Source of the DNA: a phage
DNA length: 64,000 nucleotides
Sequence record: PZ495249.1
Strand: one strand, 5' to 3'
Positions within the stretch are counted from its first letter, which is position 1. Each line of letters starts with the position of its first letter. Under the pieces are notes generated by a model, which searched no databases, had not been told where the DNA came from, and saw only the letters and a program-made list of their open reading frames with translations. This document shows, piece by piece, positions 4,570 through 60,113 of this stretch. Both the position numbers and the translations under genes were made by a program.

Positions 4570-5094
4570 TTGCTGATACGAAACTTTGTAACAATTGCGT
4601 TACTATCATTAACTGCTTTTACATTTACACCTGTAATCGGCGTTGCCGAAGCTGCAAACGTAAAGACCGCTAAAGTAGTCCACAAGTGTACAAAGCGAGA
4701 TACGAAAGAAAATCTTTTAGCTTGTGCAATGTACGCAGAGAGCCGTAACCAAGGAAAGAAAGGAATGGCTGCTGTCGGTAATGTTGTTCTGAATCGTGTT
4801 AACGATCCTCAGTTCCCTAAGACCGTCAAAGGTGTTCTCTTCCAACCAGGACAATTCTCATACACGTATAAAGGCGCATTTAATGTCGTCGAAAAGGACA
4901 GATGGCAGGAGGCAAAGCATATTGCTGATCGCTTAATCTACCTTGATAAGAACTTCCCCGAAGCTCGTGATGCAACAGATGTAACGAAAGGGGCTAAGTA
5001 TTTCAAAAAGAAGAATATCCGTACCCATTGGGAGAAGGATATGATCTTGGTGTACCGTTACAAGGAACATCAATTCTATATACCTAAGAGCTAA
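4570..5094 (+). CDS. SleB-like cell-wall hydrolase with N-terminal signal peptide (candidate secreted endolysin)
   Basis: AMYAESRNQ...GNVVLNRV...FPKTV...QPGQFS resembles the Hydrolase_2/SleB family; predicted signal peptide MLIRNFVTIALLSLTAFTFTPVIGVAEAA; probable TTG start at 4570 after RBS aggagg. Confidence 0.6.
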   Translation: MLIRNFVTIALLSLTAFTFTPVIGVAEAANVKTAKVVHKCTKRDTKENLLACAMYAESRNQGKKGMAAVGNVVLNRVNDPQFPKTVKGVLFQPGQFSYTYKGAFNVVEKDRWQEAKHIADRLIYLDKNFPEARDATDVTKGAKYFKKKNIRTHWEKDMILVYRYKEHQFYIPKS

Positions 5095-5609: not shown

Positions 5610-5784
5610 TGTAGAGGTGTTTGATGACCTGACTCAGGTGACAGACGAGAAGCTCTTGAAGCTGCGCGATGTGGCTGGTGATCATCTCCAGGAGACTTTC
5701 ACAGAGTACATGGCTGCACGAGATCGCTCTATTGCCATTCAGTTGGAGCTACAGAATCGTGGCATTGTGAAGCCTAAAGATTAA
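5581..5784 (+). CDS. hypothetical small protein
   Basis: 67 aa ORF. Confidence 0.35.
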   Translation: MLMQTNGTNDVEVFDDLTQVTDEKLLKLRDVAGDHLQETFTEYMAARDRSIAIQLELQNRGIVKPKD

Positions 5785-5846
5785 TAGGCAATACCGATTG
5801 GACATTTCCACTGATCGGTGCTAAATTAACATTACAGGAGGGAGAA

Positions 5847-50530: not shown

Positions 50531-50613
50531 TGGCATCCAGGTGAGGAATCTAACCCCTTGAAACTGGTTTTGGAGGCCAGCAACGGGAACACCCATTTTT
50601 AATCTACCCAGAT
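50531..50613 (-). tRNA. tRNA-like element, possibly Trp (CCA) with aberrant D region
   Basis: Acceptor pairs with two G/U wobbles; loop CTCCAAA; T loop TTAGATT lacks C56; D region about 7 nt too long. Confidence 0.25.
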
Positions 50614-51834: not shown

Positions 51835-51922
51835 TGGTATCGTGGACGAGATTCGAACTCGCAAGGGATTACTCCCGCCAGATTGAAAGTCTGGTTACTT
51901 AGGCCGTTTTGTATACCACGAT
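51835..51922 (-). tRNA. long-variable-arm (type II) tRNA with anticodon loop CTTTCAA (anticodon TTC); isotype ambiguous
   Basis: Perfect acceptor ATCGTGG/CCACGAT, anticodon stem CCAGA/TCTGG, 15 nt variable arm with GGGA-GTAA-TCCC stem, T arm GCGAG-TTCGAAT-CTCGT. Confidence 0.45.
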
Positions 51923-52819: not shown

Positions 52820-52895
52820 TGGCGGGCAATATTGGATTCGAACCAATTACCATTCGGTTAACAGCCGACCGCACATCCGTATGTGCTTATCACCC
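52820..52895 (-). tRNA. tRNA-Asn (anticodon GTT)
   Basis: Loop CTGTTAA, T arm ATTGG-TTCGAAT-CCAAT, acceptor with two G/U pairs. Confidence 0.55.
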
Positions 52896-53775: not shown

Positions 53776-53853
53776 TGGTCGGGGAGATAGGACTCGAACC
53801 TACATTTCCTCCATTACGCTATACGGCTTAGAAGACCGCCACGGTACACCCCG
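53776..53853 (-). tRNA. tRNA-like element, possibly Arg (TCT), with aberrant D region
   Basis: T arm GTAGG-TTCGAGT-CCTAT and arm GCGGT-CTTCTAA-GCCGT present, but no canonical D arm and 19 nt between anticodon and T arms. Confidence 0.3.
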
Positions 53854-54064: not shown

Positions 54065-54139
54065 TTGGTGAGCATTACCAGATTCGAACTGGTGTCTTTC
54101 GGGTTTAGAATCCTACGCTTTACCGCTAAGCTAAATGCC
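54065..54139 (-). tRNA. tRNA with anticodon CTA (candidate amber suppressor); low-confidence fold
   Basis: Acceptor GGGCATT/AATGCTC, D arm GCTT-AGCGGTA-AAGC, T arm ACCAG-TTCGAAT-CTGGT, loop TTCTAAA; anticodon stem has two mismatches. Confidence 0.35.
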
Positions 54140-54371
54140 CTTCGTAAATGTCACGACTATCAGGATCGTGATACAATTCTGCAATTTCTTTACTTAAAGT
54201 AGCTCTCAGTATAATCCCTTTGTGCGAAACAATCAAGTAGATTTTCGTTTCACTTACATCTCCAGGGGCTAAGAGTTTACCTCTTACAATCCGCAAACGT
54301 TCTGCTGAATACCCTTCTTCGAGATCAGCCAACATATCTGCCAACGATTTAGAGAAAGTTAACCGATGCAA
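54126..54371 (-). CDS. hypothetical protein (TTG start, weak)
   Basis: 81 aa ORF with weak RBS; 3' end overlaps the CTA tRNA. Confidence 0.25.
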   Translation of the reverse strand: MHRLTFSKSLADMLADLEEGYSAERLRIVRGKLLAPGDVSETKIYLIVSHKGIILRATLSKEIAELYHDPDSRDIYEGHLA

Positions 54372-55459
54372 GGTATTACTTTCACGGTTTACAATTCCCC
54401 AGATACGATCATCCAGTTTGCAACTTCCTGACTCACAATTAGTCTATGACATTTTCGTTCTCCTGTTTGTTAATAAAACATATAAAGAAGGACAATGATC
54501 AGGTGACGTTTGCCAACGCCCTGCCGAAGTTCCGAAGATTGCAAGTCTTCGCTTGAACCGCATTTCATCAGGAGTAACGTATGATCAGTACGTTTTTCCG
54601 AAATGCTCACACCCCACGGTGCTGACAGTTTTAACACCAATCAATGCCTTTCTTTATATGTTCTGTCGATGGTGGAGGACGGTACGGGATTTTAACCCGT
54701 CTAAACTGGTTTGCAATCAGCCACATAGACACTCTGACAACCGTCCCATCGAAAAGCCAGTCTGTTCCTGGCTGTCACCACAGTTTTAACATTCTGTGGC
54801 TTGAACGTAGGAGCTATTCGATGCTGGCATTCTCCCGTAGCTCTGCCTTTATAGGGGTATGAACCCGTAGGGCGCACCTTATTGTTCCGTTCAAGGGATC
54901 ATGTTGAATGTTAACCTCTGCTTTTCCTTTAGGTTATTCGGAGAGGTACAACGATTGGGTTAGCGAAGCCCAAACACCTCCAGAGCAAACAACAATCTCC
55001 AAAACTGGTGTGACTGGTGGGGCATGATCCCACATCATCTCCTTCACAGGGAGGAACGTTAACCAGCTTACGCTCACAGTCACCATTGTTTGTAGTGTCT
55101 CCAAGGCTTCCTATTCCATCCTAAGATGATCCACCCCTTCAACTAACGCGCTACATCCCTACGAAGAATGAACGTCATTCTCATCGTCTGAAATCTTGTT
55201 CAGAGCATACCACTGCGGAGATTAACCCGCTTCTCATCCTACGTGGTCGGTAGTAGTTGTCAATCAAACAACTCGTAAAATATATTCTCGTAAGAACACA
55301 TATTGCGAGAGTTTGGCACCAGGAGGAGGAGTCGAACACTCCTAATCAGGTCATGACTCCTGACTATCTCAAACCAAACACTGTTGTGTCGGCTATTGCA
55401 TAACAGCGAGCGCTCACTCCTATGCAGACCTTCACCAGTGTCGAGATCCTGGTATTGTT

Positions 55460-57244: not shown

Positions 57245-58942
57245 CTATTTCACCTCAATCAGATGATTCATAACCTCTTTATCCAGACGCGCACGAATAT
57301 CGTTGAAATCTTCATCTCGACCGTTCACCTGCGGAATCAGCACATCTCCGTTACGGAAGATTGGCTGCAACAGGTTATCTTCATCGTTGATCTCGTTGAA
57401 GGAGATGTTGTCAACCTGACGGATAACACCATCGTCACCACGAACAACTTTGATGAAGCCTTTCGCAGAGCGTTTACCTGGATCAGTTTTCGGCTCTTTG
57501 CTCACCATGATTTCGTAATCGTCAATGAAGCAACCAGTAGCTTTCACAGCAATACCGAAGGTATCACGAGTGTTGAACTGGTAGGTGAAGCTACCAACAC
57601 CGAATACGATGTTTGAGGAAGCAAAACCGTTACGTTTCAGACGAGACAGAATTTCAATCTCACGCTGAACAGTGATTGAATCACCGTAAATCATGCCGAT
57701 ATGAGTATCCAGCACTTTGTAACCTTTGTTGTTCACTTCACCACCGAAGATTTCCCACAGGATCTGGATAGAACCTACCGCCTCATGGCGTGGAATCTCA
57801 CGGTCTTCGTCGATCAGCCAGTAAATATTCTCTTCTTTCAGGAACGCAACTTCTGTCAGGATATGACGAGAAGTGTTAATGAAGTGTTCACGATTCTCGA
57901 ACTCTTCAATATGATAACCAGCAACAACATGTACCGGATTACCTGAGTCAGGGCGAATAACCAGGCGACCATCACGAGCCATAATCTCTTCTTTCAGTTC
58001 GCTCAGGATGCGAGTCAGTACAGTCCAGTAATCGTAGGAGTCAGCAACGTAAGAGCAGAAACCTTTAGGAACCACTTTGGTAATAAAGTGCAGCAGGAAT
58101 TCTTTCTCTGCAAGATAACGGAGGCCATCAACATCACCTGCGAGGTGAGGGAAATGCTCTTCGAGATCTTTTACGATACGACTGATGTTTGTAGTTGCCA
58201 CAGAGTGCTCAGACGCAGGGATACTACCAGCAACGAAATCATCTTCATCAATACCGTAGTATTCGTAAACCGCGTCGATTGCCAGAATGTTATCTGTACC
58301 AGTGAACGCTGCCAGGTGAGCGATACCGCTCTTATAGCCGTCTTCAATACAAGATAAACCGCGCAAACTGAAATCGTGACACTGGAAATTAACGTGATCC
58401 ACATTGTCACAAGTTGCCAGTGCATATGACATTGCCACACGCTTGTACTGGAACGCAGCAGTTGCGTTGGTGATCGCTTTCCAGCTTTCGGTTGACATTA
58501 CGGTTTCAACGTAGTTAGTCACCCAGAAGAATTTCTCAATCGTATTGTGAATGGTATAAACCGGAACACCAATCGGAGACAGAATACCTTCTGGCAGAGC
58601 ACGAATTTCCAGAGGCAGGTAGCCTAAATCGTGCAGTTCACCCCAACATTCAGCGCTTGGCGCAGATTCACCGAGTGATTTTTTAGCCATGCGATCAAAA
58701 CGCTTAACGGCTGCTTCTCGCTTCATCTTGAAGAATTTCTTCCACATGCCTACCATTGAGTCCATCACCATACGGCGGAAGCCGATGACGATAACACCGC
58801 GAGCATTTTTATCTGCGTAATGCGCAAAGTTCTTGTCATTACGTGGAGTCAGGTTAGAGAAGATCAGTTTAGTGTTTGGATTGTACATTGGCTTGTGACC
58901 AGGTTTGTACCAATCGGCAGCAGACGGTGCATAAATTTCCAT
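57245..58942 (-). CDS. nadV: nicotinamide phosphoribosyltransferase (NAMPT/NadV)
   Basis: 565 aa; NAMPT-family motifs recalled by eye (GTDNILAIDAVYEYYGI, FGVGSFTYQ); RBS aaggagaaaca. Confidence 0.8.
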   Translation of the reverse strand: MEIYAPSAADWYKPGHKPMYNPNTKLIFSNLTPRNDKNFAHYADKNARGVIVIGFRRMVMDSMVGMWKKFFKMKREAAVKRFDRMAKKSLGESAPSAECWGELHDLGYLPLEIRALPEGILSPIGVPVYTIHNTIEKFFWVTNYVETVMSTESWKAITNATAAFQYKRVAMSYALATCDNVDHVNFQCHDFSLRGLSCIEDGYKSGIAHLAAFTGTDNILAIDAVYEYYGIDEDDFVAGSIPASEHSVATTNISRIVKDLEEHFPHLAGDVDGLRYLAEKEFLLHFITKVVPKGFCSYVADSYDYWTVLTRILSELKEEIMARDGRLVIRPDSGNPVHVVAGYHIEEFENREHFINTSRHILTEVAFLKEENIYWLIDEDREIPRHEAVGSIQILWEIFGGEVNNKGYKVLDTHIGMIYGDSITVQREIEILSRLKRNGFASSNIVFGVGSFTYQFNTRDTFGIAVKATGCFIDDYEIMVSKEPKTDPGKRSAKGFIKVVRGDDGVIRQVDNISFNEINDEDNLLQPIFRNGDVLIPQVNGRDEDFNDIRARLDKEVMNHLIEVK

Positions 58943-59011: not shown

Positions 59012-59911
59012 TTATTTGTAATTTTTACGAAGATTGCCGTTCAGAATGAAATTCTGGAGCGCTTGTTGGTTTAACACCAGTTTACCTGTCTCGTCAACAT
59101 TATTCTCCCACACATTGAAAGAATGGATGCAATCAAAGTGCTCATTTAGTTCTTTCATACCCTTAGAGAAGATACCGTGGGTAACGAACAGTTCAATCTT
59201 ACCAGCGTTACGTTCACGCAATACTTTGGCAAGCTCAATGAAAGTACGACCACCATCGCAGATATCATCCACGATCATCAAATTCTTACCGCAGAAGTCC
59301 TCGACGTTGATGTTGGTCTTGACAATATCTCCGGTCTTCGTATCACGGATTTTCTCTGCACAGTGTACAATGAGTTGCATTGGTTTAGCCAGTTTGAAGA
59401 TTTTCTTCAAGGCTCCACCGTCTGGACTAACCAGATCAAACTCTTCCATACGGAGTTTCCAGTTAATCGCGAACATTGCAATCTCTTCTTGTGGGATAAC
59501 AAACAAGTTATGGATTACAGCCGGAGTTACATCACTGTGCGGATCAGCAACAGTCACACGGTCAAAGTTAAGGTTGTTAAGTGCTTCTGCAAACGCACCG
59601 ATACCATTGGCTTCACCTGGTTCACACACTCGGTCTTGTCGAGCATATGGCACATAGAGCATAACAAGCTCTGTTGTGTGAGGGATGAATTTAAGAATGT
59701 TATCAATTGCATTCTTAGTCATCAGCAACACCATGAAGTCATTACCTGATCTTACTTCGTGATGGATAATCACACGAGAACCTGGTTCAGTTAATGCAAT
59801 CATCGTGTCTGCATCAACACGTACATGTTCTTCTCCGCCAGAGAAGGTGAATGTTTTGATTGGTACAGGATAAACTTCACTGTTGTGTGGGTGCATGATA
59901 TCAATCTTCAT
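59012..59911 (-). CDS. prs: ribose-phosphate pyrophosphokinase (PRPP synthetase)
   Basis: PRPP-binding loop NLMIVDDICDGGRTF, conserved YARQDRV; start set at ATG 59911 after RBS gaggagg. Confidence 0.8.
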   Translation of the reverse strand: MKIDIMHPHNSEVYPVPIKTFTFSGGEEHVRVDADTMIALTEPGSRVIIHHEVRSGNDFMVLLMTKNAIDNILKFIPHTTELVMLYVPYARQDRVCEPGEANGIGAFAEALNNLNFDRVTVADPHSDVTPAVIHNLFVIPQEEIAMFAINWKLRMEEFDLVSPDGGALKKIFKLAKPMQLIVHCAEKIRDTKTGDIVKTNINVEDFCGKNLMIVDDICDGGRTFIELAKVLRERNAGKIELFVTHGIFSKGMKELNEHFDCIHSFNVWENNVDETGKLVLNQQALQNFILNGNLRKNYK

Positions 59912-60113
59912 TGTCTTCCTCCTCTTCTTCAATTTCTTCAATTTCACTTAAACGATCAAGAATTGTCTGAGCCTGGTCCCAGAGAGCATCATAGGCTCTA
60001 CGCTCACGAGGAGATAGCTGTGAAGGTCTGAAATCATCTTGGTACATCTTATCAATAATATCTTGCATATCGTTCGATGTATTCTCGAACATACAATAAC
60101 TCATGTTTGACAT
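59901..60113 (-). CDS. hypothetical acidic protein
   Basis: 70 aa with poly-Glu C-terminus. Confidence 0.35.
   Translation of the reverse strand: MSNMSYCMFENTSNDMQDIIDKMYQDDFRPSQLSPRERRAYDALWDQAQTILDRLSEIEEIEEEEEDNED

What the first reader, a model, noticed from the sequence alone, without database searches (positions are those of the whole stretch)
51835..51922. Long-variable-arm tRNA carrying a UUC (Glu-type) anticodon
The element has a perfect acceptor stem, canonical T arm and a 15 nt variable arm with its own 4 bp stem, which in bacteria marks Leu, Ser or Tyr tRNAs, yet its anticodon loop CTTTCAA places TTC at positions 34-36. Because SerRS and LeuRS recognise the long arm rather than the anticodon, such a tRNA could insert Ser or Leu at GAA codons, or it may be an otherwise unusual Glu tRNA.
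Basis: partly seen in the sequence, partly recalled or inferred. Interest (0 to 1): 0.5.

Follow-up and report, generated by a model that had tools for sequence, protein, structure and literature searches.

The report
Phage glutamate tRNA with extra arm
This phage carries a real, conserved transfer RNA that reads glutamate codons but has the extra hairpin arm that bacteria normally reserve for leucine, serine and tyrosine tRNAs. It belongs to a phage-specific lineage that I did not find described in the literature I searched.

Summary
Window 51835-51922 (minus strand) encodes an 88-nt tRNA. It has a 7-bp acceptor stem, a 3-bp D stem, anticodon loop CUUUCAA (UUC), a 15-nt variable region with a 4-bp hairpin, a canonical T arm, A73 and an encoded CCA (ARAGORN; Rfam tRNA 48.8 bits).

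- **Context:** it is the only Glu decoder in a phage tRNA array that covers all 20 amino acids.
- **Homologues:** they occur in Klebsiella and Citrobacter phages and in 25 viral contigs. All stem cells pair, and 13 of 20 pairs show compensatory change. The extra hairpin is kept while its sequence turns over.
- **Distribution:** in 185,579 prokaryotic genomes the motif occurred twice, both times in phage-like arrays.
- **Isotype:** scoring without the anticodon arm, T loop and variable region places it with phage tRNA-Glu, far from Tyr, Leu and Ser. A second subgroup is an E. coli-like tRNA-Glu core with an inserted hairpin.
- **Codons:** GAA/GAG make up 5.65% of codons in the large ORFs. They align with Glu in a relative that lacks this tRNA.

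Verdict: most likely an unusual Glu tRNA, not a Ser/Leu mis-inserter. Charging is untested, and it lacks the E. coli GluRS D-arm determinants. The role of the arm, possibly escape from tRNA-targeting defences, is conjecture. It is a new variant of a known kind.

The parts
51835..51922 (-). Whole tRNA gene, 88 nt, anticodon UUC, class-II-like shape with a long variable arm
   Evidence: ARAGORN; Rfam RF00005 at 48.8 bits; covariation in 11 homologues
51916..51922 (-). Acceptor stem 5' strand, AUCGUGG (A1, U2, C3...)
   Evidence: It pairs perfectly with 51839-51845. 6 of 7 pairs show compensatory change in homologues.
51896..51913 (-). D arm: 3-bp stem UAC/GUA (A11-U24), unpaired A13 and A22, 10-nt loop AAACGGCCUA with A14, A15 and G18G19
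   Evidence: A D-arm-only score ties Tyr, Glu and Ser. R11-Y24 is found in 24 of 25 family members.
51878..51894 (-). Anticodon arm CCAGA-CUUUCAA-UCUGG
   Evidence: The same arm occurs in 115 viral stretches carrying short-variable-region matches, of which 76 distinct canonical phage tRNA-Glu were parsed.
51885..51887 (-). Anticodon UUC (positions 34-36), reading GAA/GAG
   Evidence: Plus strand reads GAA at 51885-51887; ARAGORN anticodon position 36
51863..51877 (-). Variable arm C-GGGA-GUAA-UCCC-UU: 4-bp stem, tetraloop, U48 opposite A15
   Evidence: Homologues keep the hairpin with different sequences (GUAG/CUAC, GAGG/CCUC, GCAG/CUGC, CAC/GUG).
51846..51862 (-). T arm GCGAG-UUCGAAU-CUCGU
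51839..51845 (-). Acceptor stem 3' strand, CCACGAU
51835..51838 (-). Discriminator A73 and genome-encoded CCA end
   Evidence: A73 is found in 24 of 26 long-arm and 122 of 141 canonical phage tRNA-Glu.
50450..55838 (-). Surrounding phage tRNA array: 23 ARAGORN genes plus weaker Cys, Arg-UCU-like and Trp-like elements. The target lies 7 nt upstream of tRNA-Gln and is the only Glu decoder.
   Evidence: The array is syntenic with Klebsiella phage phi1_175008 and KP13-26.

Best explanation
This is a functional phage-encoded tRNA that decodes GAA/GAG. Most probably the host glutamyl-tRNA synthetase charges it with glutamate, so it serves as the phage's own tRNA-Glu.

It belongs to a phage-restricted lineage of tRNA(UUC) in which the variable loop has grown into a stable hairpin. 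In the window's subgroup the D arm has been remodelled to the 3-bp-stem, large-loop geometry that accommodates such an arm.

What is shown:
- The gene folds as a tRNA and is conserved by compensatory change.
- The extra arm is conserved as a structure, not as a sequence.
- The body outside the anticodon arm scores as Glu.
- The phage uses GAA/GAG heavily, and as Glu.

What is inferred:
- Charging by GluRS. GluRS is a class I synthetase that approaches from the D-arm side, leaving the variable region towards solvent (my own knowledge). Its strongest determinants, U34 U35 C36 A37, are all present.
- The purpose of the arm. My preferred but weakly supported guess (about 0.3) is that it makes the phage tRNA structurally unlike host tRNA-Glu. 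Decoding of a very frequent codon could then continue when host tRNA-Glu is cleaved or depleted by tRNA-targeting defences, or by phage-induced host tRNA decay.
For: - **tRNA calls and fold:**
- **Covariation:** 100% pairing and 13 of 20 compensatory pairs in 11 homologues. The 15-48 Levitt pair switches from A-U to G-C in L008 and L037.
- **Variable arm:** hairpin present in 24 of 26 members with unrelated sequences.
- **Array context:** sole Glu decoder in an array covering all 20 amino acids.
- **Isotype scoring:** a naive-Bayes classifier was trained on 1337 canonical phage tRNAs, without the anticodon arm, T loop or variable region (leave-one-out accuracy 0.76). The window scores as Glu, 12.4 nats over the runner-up. 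24 of 26 long-arm UUC tRNAs score as Glu. The acceptor stem alone also gives Glu.
- **Type B members:** they carry U13.G22 and the T stem AGGGG/CCCCU, and their variable region UA|hairpin|UC corresponds to E. coli gltT's UAAC.
- **Other isotypes:** other long-arm phage tRNAs keep the discriminator of their anticodon's isotype: Asn G 8/9, Asp G 4/4, Cys U 3/4, His C 2/2, Thr U 4/4, Trp G 2/2. 55 of 79 classify as their own isotype.
- **Interchangeable slots:** phi92 and the Klebsiella phages carry an 85-nt long-arm Asn where the window has a canonical 76-nt Asn.
- **Codon use:** GAA 38.5 and GAG 18.0 per 1000 codons. These codons align to E at 76.6% and 75.4% in Phapecoctavirus DE16, which did not match the 88-nt tRNA query. 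Replacements are D, Q, K and A, with no Y, L or S among the six commonest aligned residues.
- **Identity elements:** U34 U35 C36 A37 are listed as strong E. coli GluRS determinants and U2-A71 as a weak one. All are present (PMC9976931).
- **Defence context:** phage tRNAs, and specifically their variable loops, are documented determinants of escape from tRNA-cleaving defences (PMC13096335, citing PMC11555353).
Against: - No aminoacylation or expression data exist.
- By the E. coli rules the window tRNA lacks the 'augmented D helix' determinants. It has A11-U24 instead of U11-A24, A13.A22 instead of U13-G22:A46, and a long arm where residue 47 should be absent. It also has A1-U72 instead of G1-C72.
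- It carries features used by LeuRS (A73, A14, A15-U48, G18G19) and TyrRS (A73, U35, long arm).
- Its D arm alone scores as well for Tyr and Ser as for Glu, and its nearest D-arm neighbours are Tyr and other long-arm tRNAs.
- The Glu reference set and the family were both gathered with a pattern fixed on the anticodon arm and T loop. I removed those positions from the scoring, but ascertainment bias remains.
- No defence system that targets tRNA-Glu was tied to these phages, and no tRNA-related enzyme lies near the array.
Confidence: 0.6

Rival explanations
1. It is a mis-acylated tRNA. Because it has a class-II body with A73, host LeuRS or TyrRS (less likely SerRS) charges it, and it inserts Leu or Tyr at GAA/GAG. 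This could be an accident of its origin from a Tyr-like scaffold, or deliberate statistical mistranslation, as with nematode nev-tRNAs.
For: - A73, A14, A15-U48 and G18G19 match E. coli LeuRS elements. A73, U35 and the long arm match TyrRS elements.
- The D arm is closest to phage Tyr tRNAs and ties Tyr, Glu and Ser in D-arm-only scoring.
- L008 and L037 have Tyr-like variable regions ending in GUUC, with G15-C48.
- The GluRS D-arm determinants are absent.
Against: - GAA/GAG are 5.65% of codons in the large ORFs, and they are conserved as Glu against a relative lacking the tRNA, with no Y, L or S signal. Efficient mis-insertion would damage every phage protein.
- Full scoring favours Glu by 18 nats over Tyr and Leu, and the acceptor stem alone favours Glu.
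- It is the only Glu decoder in the array.
- Type B relatives have a Glu core.
- Discriminators of other long-arm tRNAs track their anticodons, not A73 or G73 uniformly.
- G34 is missing, as are the G1-C72 pair seen in 13 of 15 phage Tyr tRNAs and the A at the 20a-equivalent position.
Confidence: 0.12
2. It is a non-decoding tRNA mimic. The molecule is made and processed like a tRNA, but it acts as a decoy or competitor for a host factor that recognises the tRNA-Glu anticodon loop or a class-II variable arm. Examples are an anticodon nuclease, or Septu/retron-Eco7-type nucleases that cut tRNA-Tyr in its variable arm. It would contribute little to translation.
For: - It coexists with a canonical tRNA-Glu(UUC) in 11 of 29 loci, which suggests a non-redundant role.
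- It mixes a Glu anticodon loop with a class-II body.
- Some irregular bacterial tRNAs are charged but not used in translation (PMC5389517).
Against: - In the window and its Klebsiella and Citrobacter relatives it is the only Glu tRNA in a full set.
- The acceptor stem, A73, encoded CCA, T loop, Levitt pair and a standard 7-nt anticodon loop are all kept. A decoy would not need all of them.
- No cognate defence system is identified.
Confidence: 0.13
3. It is an ordinary Glu tRNA whose extra hairpin is a tolerated, selectively neutral insertion. Phage tRNAs are loosely constrained and the variable loop faces solvent, so the arm would have no function of its own.
For: - About 3% of class-I-isotype tRNAs in 95 control phage arrays have variable regions of at least 9 nt.
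- Conversely, 61 distinct phage 'Leu' tRNAs lack the long arm, so gain and loss of the arm seem easy in phages.
- Long-arm and canonical Asn swap at one syntenic slot.
Against: - The hairpin is retained by compensatory turnover across very different phages.
- The D arm has co-adapted in type A.
- A near-fixed R11-Y24 pair accompanies the arm: 24 of 25, against 27% in canonical Glu.
- Stretches with long-arm matches make up 25 of 140 (18%) of the viral stretches sharing this anticodon arm, but the motif is almost absent from 185,579 cellular genomes.
- It frequently coexists with a canonical copy.
Confidence: 0.15

Closest known systems
Canonical bacterial and phage tRNA-Glu(UUC), e.g. E. coli gltT and the class-I tRNA-Glu of phage tRNA arrays
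   Same: UUC anticodon with U33 and A37. U2-A71 and C3-G70 as in gltT. The same T loop, UUCGAAU. The acceptor end A73 with U72 is typical of phage tRNA-Glu. The anticodon arm is the same as in 76 distinct canonical phage tRNA-Glu. It scores as Glu outside the anticodon arm.
   Different: 15-nt variable arm instead of a 4-nt loop lacking residue 47. 3-bp D stem with A13.A22 and a 10-nt loop instead of a 4-bp stem with U13.G22. A11-U24 instead of U11-A24. A1-U72 instead of G1-C72.
Bacterial class II tRNAs (tRNA-Leu, tRNA-Ser, tRNA-Tyr)
   Same: Long variable arm with its own stem and tetraloop. 3-bp D stem with unpaired 13 and 22. A73, as in Leu and Tyr. A15-U48, as in Leu. D loop resembling phage tRNA-Tyr.
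   Different: The anticodon is not Leu, Ser or Tyr. The acceptor stem and T stem score as Glu. The 1:72 pair is A-U, not the G-C of Tyr and Ser. G73 and G2-C71 of Ser are absent.
Nematode nev-tRNAs and eukaryotic noncanonical V-arm tRNAs (Hamashima et al., PMC3333845)
   Same: A class-II-shaped tRNA carrying an anticodon of a class-I amino acid, conserved within a lineage.
   Different: nev-tRNAs derive from tRNA-Leu, are charged only with Leu and tend to match rare codons. Here the body scores as Glu, the codon is among the commonest in the phage, and the element is viral.
Bacterial allo-tRNAs and (8/4) tRNAs of bacteria and phages (Mukai et al., PMC5389517)
   Same: Long variable arm combined with non-Ser, non-Leu anticodons. 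Some are found in phage tRNA clusters.
   Different: allo-tRNAs have an 8/4 or 9/3 acceptor/T architecture, a tRNA-Sec-like D arm and mostly G73 or U73 (Ser identity). This tRNA has the standard 7/5 architecture and A73.
Phage tRNAs that evade tRNA-cleaving defences (T5 tRNA-Tyr versus retron-Eco7; T6 tRNA-Tyr versus Septu)
   Same: A phage-encoded tRNA in an array. The variable arm is the part that differs from the host tRNA.
   Different: Those cases are tRNA-Tyr, which is already class II, and have demonstrated nuclease targets. Here an arm is added to a Glu decoder, and no targeting defence is known.

Membership tests
tRNA (Rfam RF00005, standard 7/5 cloverleaf) | Score above the gathering threshold, with acceptor, D, anticodon and T helices and a 7-nt anticodon loop | tested here: met
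   48.8 bits against 29; ARAGORN structure; 100% pairing with covariation
Bacterial class II tRNA architecture | Variable region of 10 nt or more forming its own stem-loop | tested here: met
   15 nt, 4-bp stem GGGA/UCCC, loop GUAA
Bacterial class II tRNA architecture | Anticodon belongs to Leu, Ser or Tyr (or Sec) | tested here: not met
   The anticodon is UUC
tRNA-Glu (E. coli GluRS identity set, PMC9976931) | U34, U35, C36 and A37 (strong determinants) | tested here: met
   Loop CUUUCAA
tRNA-Glu (E. coli GluRS identity set, PMC9976931) | Acceptor pairs G1-C72 and U2-A71 (weak determinants) | tested here: inconclusive
   U2-A71 is present; 1:72 is A-U, not G-C
tRNA-Glu (E. coli GluRS identity set, PMC9976931) | U11-A24, the U13-G22:A46 triple and absence of residue 47 ('augmented D helix') | tested here: not met
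   A11-U24, A13.A22 and a 15-nt variable arm. Type B relatives keep U13.G22.
tRNA-Glu (phage isoacceptors, empirical profile) | Body positions outside the anticodon arm, T loop and variable region resemble canonical phage tRNA-Glu more than any other isotype | tested here: met
   Naive-Bayes rank 1, +12.4 nats over the next isotype; leave-one-out accuracy 0.76
tRNA-Glu | Aminoacylation with glutamate by GluRS | not testable with these tools
   Needs an in vitro charging assay or acid-urea northern blots or tRNA-seq from infected cells
tRNA-Leu (E. coli LeuRS identity set, PMC9976931) | A73, A14, A15-U48, G18G19 and A20a in a Leu-type D loop | tested here: inconclusive
   A73, A14, A15-U48 and G18G19 are present. 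The base after position 20 is C, not A (my numbering). The overall profile is 18.4 nats worse than Glu.
tRNA-Tyr (bacterial TyrRS identity, PMC9976931) | A73, U35, G34 and a long variable arm | tested here: inconclusive
   A73, U35 and the arm are present. Position 34 is U and position 36 is C. The 1:72 pair is A-U, whereas 13 of 15 phage Tyr tRNAs have G-C. The profile is 17.9 nats worse than Glu.
tRNA-Ser (E. coli SerRS identity, PMC9976931) | Long variable arm plus G73 and G1-C72/G2-C71 | tested here: not met
   A73, A1-U72 and U2-A71; the profile is 25.1 nats worse than Glu
allo-tRNA (PMC5389517) | 8/4 or 9/3 acceptor/T-stem composition with a tRNA-Sec-like D arm | tested here: not met
   7-bp acceptor and 5-bp T stem, 3-bp D stem with a 10-nt loop
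nev-tRNA / noncanonical V-arm tRNAs (PMC3333845) | Derived from tRNA-Leu and charged with Leu despite the anticodon | tested here: not met
   Derivation: the body scores as Glu, not Leu. Charging itself is not testable here.

The most novel reading that the evidence does not exclude
Adding a variable-arm hairpin is a general phage strategy for making 'disguised' tRNAs. Examples found here are Glu, Asn, Gln, Asp, Lys, Thr, Cys, His and Ile-UAU. These tRNAs would still be charged by host synthetases but would no longer be recognised by host tRNA-targeting immune nucleases, or by the phage's own host-tRNA degradation. A bolder version is that the window-type molecule, with a Tyr/Leu-like body and a Glu anticodon, has dual identity. 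It would then be either a decoy for variable-arm-cutting nucleases or a deliberate Glu-to-Tyr/Leu mistranslator.
Probability: 0.25. Interest if true: 0.8.

Novelty: new variant of a known kind. Interest (0 to 1): 0.55.

Why it matters
Textbook tRNA biology says that in bacteria a long variable arm marks only Leu, Ser, Tyr and Sec tRNAs. It also says that E. coli-type GluRS needs a tRNA with a specially shortened variable loop. A conserved, phage-restricted tRNA(UUC) with a full extra arm challenges both points.

- **If GluRS charges it:** the accepted Glu identity set is incomplete, and the molecule offers a natural scaffold for tagging tRNAs through the variable arm.
- **If GluRS does not charge it:** it is a viral mis-translator or decoy.

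It is the only Glu decoder in the arrays of cultured Klebsiella and Citrobacter phages, so the question can be tested directly. The wider pattern found here points to unexplored plasticity of tRNA architecture in viruses. Arms are added to many class-I isotypes, and arms are lost from Leu. This may be tied to the arms race over tRNA-cleaving defences.

Tried and rejected
1. **Alternative fold or register:** cmscan of the locus found only the tRNA model, with UUC at positions 34-36. There was no tRNA-Sec, tmRNA or other hit. Rejected.
2. **Similarity to host tRNAs:** blastn of the 88 nt against 5,426 E. coli genomes found nothing, even at E up to 10. It is not a captured host gene.
3. **Codon reassignment of GAA/GAG:** rejected by codon-to-residue alignment with phage DE16.
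4. **A phage-encoded synthetase or tRNA enzyme next to the array:** Pfam scans of 10 neighbouring ORFs gave only NAPRTase, PRPP-synthetase-like, Laminin_G_3, terminase and portal.
5. **Descent from tRNA-Tyr by anticodon shift:** suggested by the D arm and by the AGACU...AAUCU anticodon stem. However, the same anticodon arm occurs in 115 viral stretches with class-I-size matches (76 distinct canonical tRNA-Glu parsed), and the acceptor and T stems score as Glu. I kept this only as a minor possibility for the L008/L037-like members.
6. **Discriminator or 1:72 signature as a Glu marker:** G.U/A73 is shared by phage Leu tRNAs (18 of 27), so on its own it does not separate Glu from Leu.
7. **MAFFT alignment of the variable arm:** it mis-registers the hairpin, so I counted arm pairing per sequence with RNAfold instead.
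8. **Literature searches:** searches for a described long-arm phage tRNA-Glu found none. The library is incomplete, so this is not proof of novelty.
9. **An intron or spliced insert in the variable region:** no known bacterial mechanism exists, and the hairpin is only 11-16 nt. Not pursued.

Full report
**1. What is there**

The window is a tailed-phage genome fragment related to the phi92/Phapecoctavirus group (Stephanstirmvirinae).
- Its structural genes are only about 75% identical to any deposited phage.
- Its tRNA region is 85-88% identical, in patches, to Klebsiella phages phi1_175008, KP13-26, KP2025 and FKP3.

On the minus strand, between 50450 and 55838, lies an array of 23 ARAGORN tRNA genes. 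Three weaker elements sit in the same array: Cys-GCA at 54673-54746, an Arg-UCU-like element at 53776-53853 and a Trp-like element at 50531-50613.

Read 5' to 3' it is:

AUCGUGG UA UAC A AAACGGCCUA A GUA A CCAGA CUUUCAA UCUGG C-GGGA-GUAA-UCCC-UU GCGAG UUCGAAU CUCGU CCACGAU A CCA.

The Rfam tRNA model scores 48.8 bits against a threshold of 29. It uses the same register and treats the hairpin as a variable-region insertion. Nothing else matches the locus.

**2. It is a conserved gene, not chance**

Homologues of 84-91 nt occur at the syntenic position (between tRNA-Gln and tRNA-Gly) in the Klebsiella phages, and next to tRNA-Gln in Citrobacter phage Tr1. Another occurs in a 642-kb uncultured phage.

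A pattern scan of IMG/VR (GACTTTCAATC, 18-28 nt, GTTCGAATC) found 25 more viral contigs. Each has an 83-91 nt tRNA(UUC) inside a tRNA array. Some are phage contigs of 183-476 kb.
- On 11 distinct window-type sequences, all 220 stem cells form standard pairs.
- 13 of 20 pairs change on both sides.
- None of 500 shuffles reached the observed values for four of the five measures (2 of 500 for further pair types).
- Slid registers pair only 32-39%.
- The tertiary 15-48 pair switches from A-U to G-C in L008 and L037.
- The variable region folds into a 3-8 bp hairpin in 24 of 26 distinct members, although the sequences are unrelated. Examples are GGGA/UCCC, GUAG/CUAC, GCAG/CUGC and CAC/GUG.

So the arm is selected as a structure.

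**3. It is phage-specific**

The same pattern was scanned over one genome from each of 185,579 bacterial and archaeal species. It gave only two real tRNAs. One is on a 16-kb contig of a Saprospiraceae MAG, and one is in a Kangiellaceae chromosome. Both lie in phage-like arrays of 10-18 tRNA genes.

The 88-nt sequence matches nothing in 5,426 E. coli genomes. With a short variable region, the same anticodon arm and T loop occur in 115 viral stretches. Stretches carrying a long-arm match are therefore about 18% (25 of 140) of those sharing this anticodon arm.

**4. Which amino acid?**

This cannot be proven computationally, but several independent lines point to Glu.

(a) *Two body types.* Type B has the D arm UCGACUAGUGGCUUAGGUC with U13.G22. 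Its T stem, AGGGG/CCCCU, is identical to that of E. coli gltT. Its variable region, UA|hairpin|UC, corresponds to gltT's UAAC. It is a tRNA-Glu core with a hairpin inserted. The window belongs to type A, whose D arm is class-II-like: a 3-bp stem, A13.A22 and a 10-nt loop. Its nearest neighbours are phage tRNA-Tyr and other long-arm tRNAs.

I excluded the anticodon arm, T loop and variable region, because these had been fixed by my search pattern or define the oddity. Leave-one-out accuracy was 0.76.
- The window tRNA is classified as Glu by 12.4 nats over the runner-up. The margins are 17.9 over Tyr, 18.4 over Leu and 25.1 over Ser.
- 24 of 26 family members are classified as Glu.
- The acceptor stem plus position 73 alone also gives Glu.
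- The D arm alone ties Tyr, Glu and Ser.

(c) *The pattern across isotypes.* Phage arrays also contain long-arm tRNAs with Asn, Asp, Gln, Cys, His, Thr, Trp, Lys, Ile, Pro, Val and Met anticodons.
- Their discriminator base follows the anticodon's isotype: Asn G73 in 8 of 9, Asp G 4 of 4, Cys U 3 of 4, His C 2 of 2, Thr U 4 of 4, Trp G 2 of 2. It is not uniformly the A73 of Leu and Tyr, nor the G73 of Ser.
- 55 of 79 classify as their own isotype, close to the classifier's accuracy.
- phi92 and the Klebsiella phages carry an 85-nt long-arm Asn as their only Asn gene, where the window has an unrelated canonical 76-nt Asn.

The arm therefore behaves as an add-on that does not change identity.

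(d) *Array logic.* The window array covers all 20 amino acids, and this is its only Glu decoder.

(e) *Codons.* In 32 large ORFs, GAA is 38.5 and GAG 18.0 per 1000 codons, together 5.65%. I aligned 9,638 columns to Phapecoctavirus DE16. That phage did not match the 88-nt tRNA query.
- Window GAA and GAG codons face E at 76.6% and 75.4%. This is the same level as other codons with their own amino acids.
- Otherwise they face D, Q, K and A. Y, L and S are not among the six commonest aligned residues.

GAA/GAG therefore mean Glu. An efficient Leu, Tyr or Ser inserter would damage every phage protein.

**5. What speaks against Glu**

The review of identity sets (PMC9976931) lists for E. coli GluRS:
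- strong determinants U34, U35, C36 and A37, all present;
- weak determinants G1-C72 (absent; A-U here) and U2-A71 (present);

The window tRNA has A11-U24, A13.A22 and a 15-nt arm. It also shows A73, A14, A15-U48 and G18G19, which are LeuRS elements. And it shows A73, U35 and a long arm, which are TyrRS elements. Mischarging therefore cannot be excluded from sequence.

Ser is unlikely because of A73, U2-A71 and the short arm.

A purine-11/pyrimidine-24 pair accompanies the arm in 24 of 25 family members, against 27% of canonical phage tRNA-Glu. I cannot explain this coupling.

**6. Mechanism**

Most likely (0.6): the tRNA is transcribed and processed with the array. It lies 7 nt from tRNA-Gln and its CCA is encoded. 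It would then be charged with Glu and used for GAA/GAG.

GluRS is a class I enzyme that binds the D-arm face and the anticodon, so the variable region points away from it. This is my own knowledge, not tested here. It makes tolerance of an arm plausible.

Why keep the arm? Three observations argue against pure neutrality:
- its structural conservation;
- its coexistence with a canonical tRNA-Glu(UUC) in 11 of 29 loci;
- its near-absence from cellular genomes.

Phage tRNAs are documented counter-measures to tRNA-cleaving defences, and the variable loop of T5 tRNA-Tyr is what makes it resistant to retron-Eco7 (PMC13096335, citing PMC11555353). By analogy, I propose that the arm makes the phage tRNA-Glu unrecognisable to a nuclease or other factor that targets host tRNA-Glu. 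This is inference, at about 0.3. No such system was linked to these phages, and no tRNA-related enzyme lies near the array.

**7. Comparison with known kinds**

It works like a phage tRNA-Glu and looks like a class II tRNA.
- It is not an allo-tRNA, because it has 7/5 rather than 8/4 or 9/3 architecture and A73.
- It is not a nev-tRNA-type Leu acceptor by descent.
- GenBank annotators labelled the Klebsiella homologues 'tRNA-Glu'. The gene was missed in KP2025 and in Citrobacter Tr1.
- I found no paper describing a long-arm tRNA-Glu or the wider phenomenon in phages. The library is incomplete.

I rate it a new variant of a known kind.

**8. Limits**

- The family and much of the Glu reference set were collected with one fixed pattern, so its true breadth and the 18% figure are biased.
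- The classifier is crude.
- Hosts of most contigs are unknown.
- Nothing here measures expression, modification or charging.

Noticed in passing
window 54066-54140 (-): A 75-nt tRNA with anticodon CUA (amber suppressor type). ARAGORN labels it 'Pyl' and the Rfam tRNA model scores 60.2 bits. It is also present in Klebsiella phage relatives and in L012. The 32 large window ORFs end in TAA 28 times, TGA twice and TAG twice, so wholesale TAG recoding is not evident.
   Followed up: partly
L038 (phi92) 5721-5805; L001 4638-4722; L004 3197-3281; L002 2732-2817; window 52820-52895: phi92, the Klebsiella phages and Citrobacter Tr1 carry an 85-86 nt tRNA-Asn(GUU) with a variable-arm hairpin and G73, as their only Asn gene. 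At the syntenic slot the window has an unrelated canonical 76-nt tRNA-Asn.
   Followed up: partly
L005-L136 (phage tRNA arrays from IMG/VR): In 95 control phage arrays, about 3% of tRNAs with class-I anticodons have variable regions of at least 9 nt, usually hairpins. The isotypes are Asn, Lys, Thr, Cys, Trp, Gln, His, Ile, Pro, Met and Phe. Their discriminator bases match the anticodon's isotype.
   Followed up: partly
e.g. L019 8673-8910; 61 distinct sequences across L040-L136: Many phage arrays hold tRNA-Leu genes of class-I size (about 74 nt, no long variable arm). This is the converse anomaly to the one studied here.
   Followed up: no
L037 3754-3844; also L060, L066, L075, L100, L107, L109: A recurrent 91-95 nt tRNA-Ile(UAU) whose variable region carries a conserved insert (…CAGAUUAGCG… or …CAGAUAAUUGG…). 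Here the sequence is conserved, not only the structure.
   Followed up: no
family-wide; window 51899 and 51912 (positions 24 and 11): The 11-24 pair is purine-pyrimidine (A-U or G-C) in 24 of 25 long-arm tRNA(UUC), against 35 of 132 canonical phage tRNA-Glu and under 10% in most isotypes. This is the reverse of the E. coli GluRS determinant U11-A24.
   Followed up: partly
window 50531-50613, 53776-53853, 54673-54746 (-): Three tRNA-like elements missed by default ARAGORN. One is Trp-like (CCA) with an oversized anticodon loop. One is degenerate with UCU in its loop (Arg-like). One is an acceptable tRNA-Cys(GCA) with U73. With these, the array covers all 20 amino acids.
   Followed up: partly
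window 57245-58942 and 59012-59947 (-): Nicotinate/nicotinamide phosphoribosyltransferase-family and PRPP-synthetase-like genes lie directly beside the tRNA array, as in phi92 (gp108 and gp107). They form an NAD-salvage module.
   Followed up: no
L038 (phi92) 4665-4793 compared with window 51835-51922: In phi92, the interval between tRNA-Gln and tRNA-Gly holds a small CDS (gp113, annotated as a putative rIII lysis-inhibition accessory protein). In the window and the Klebsiella phages that interval holds the long-arm tRNA(UUC). phi92 has no Glu tRNA annotated in the stretch of its array examined.
   Followed up: no
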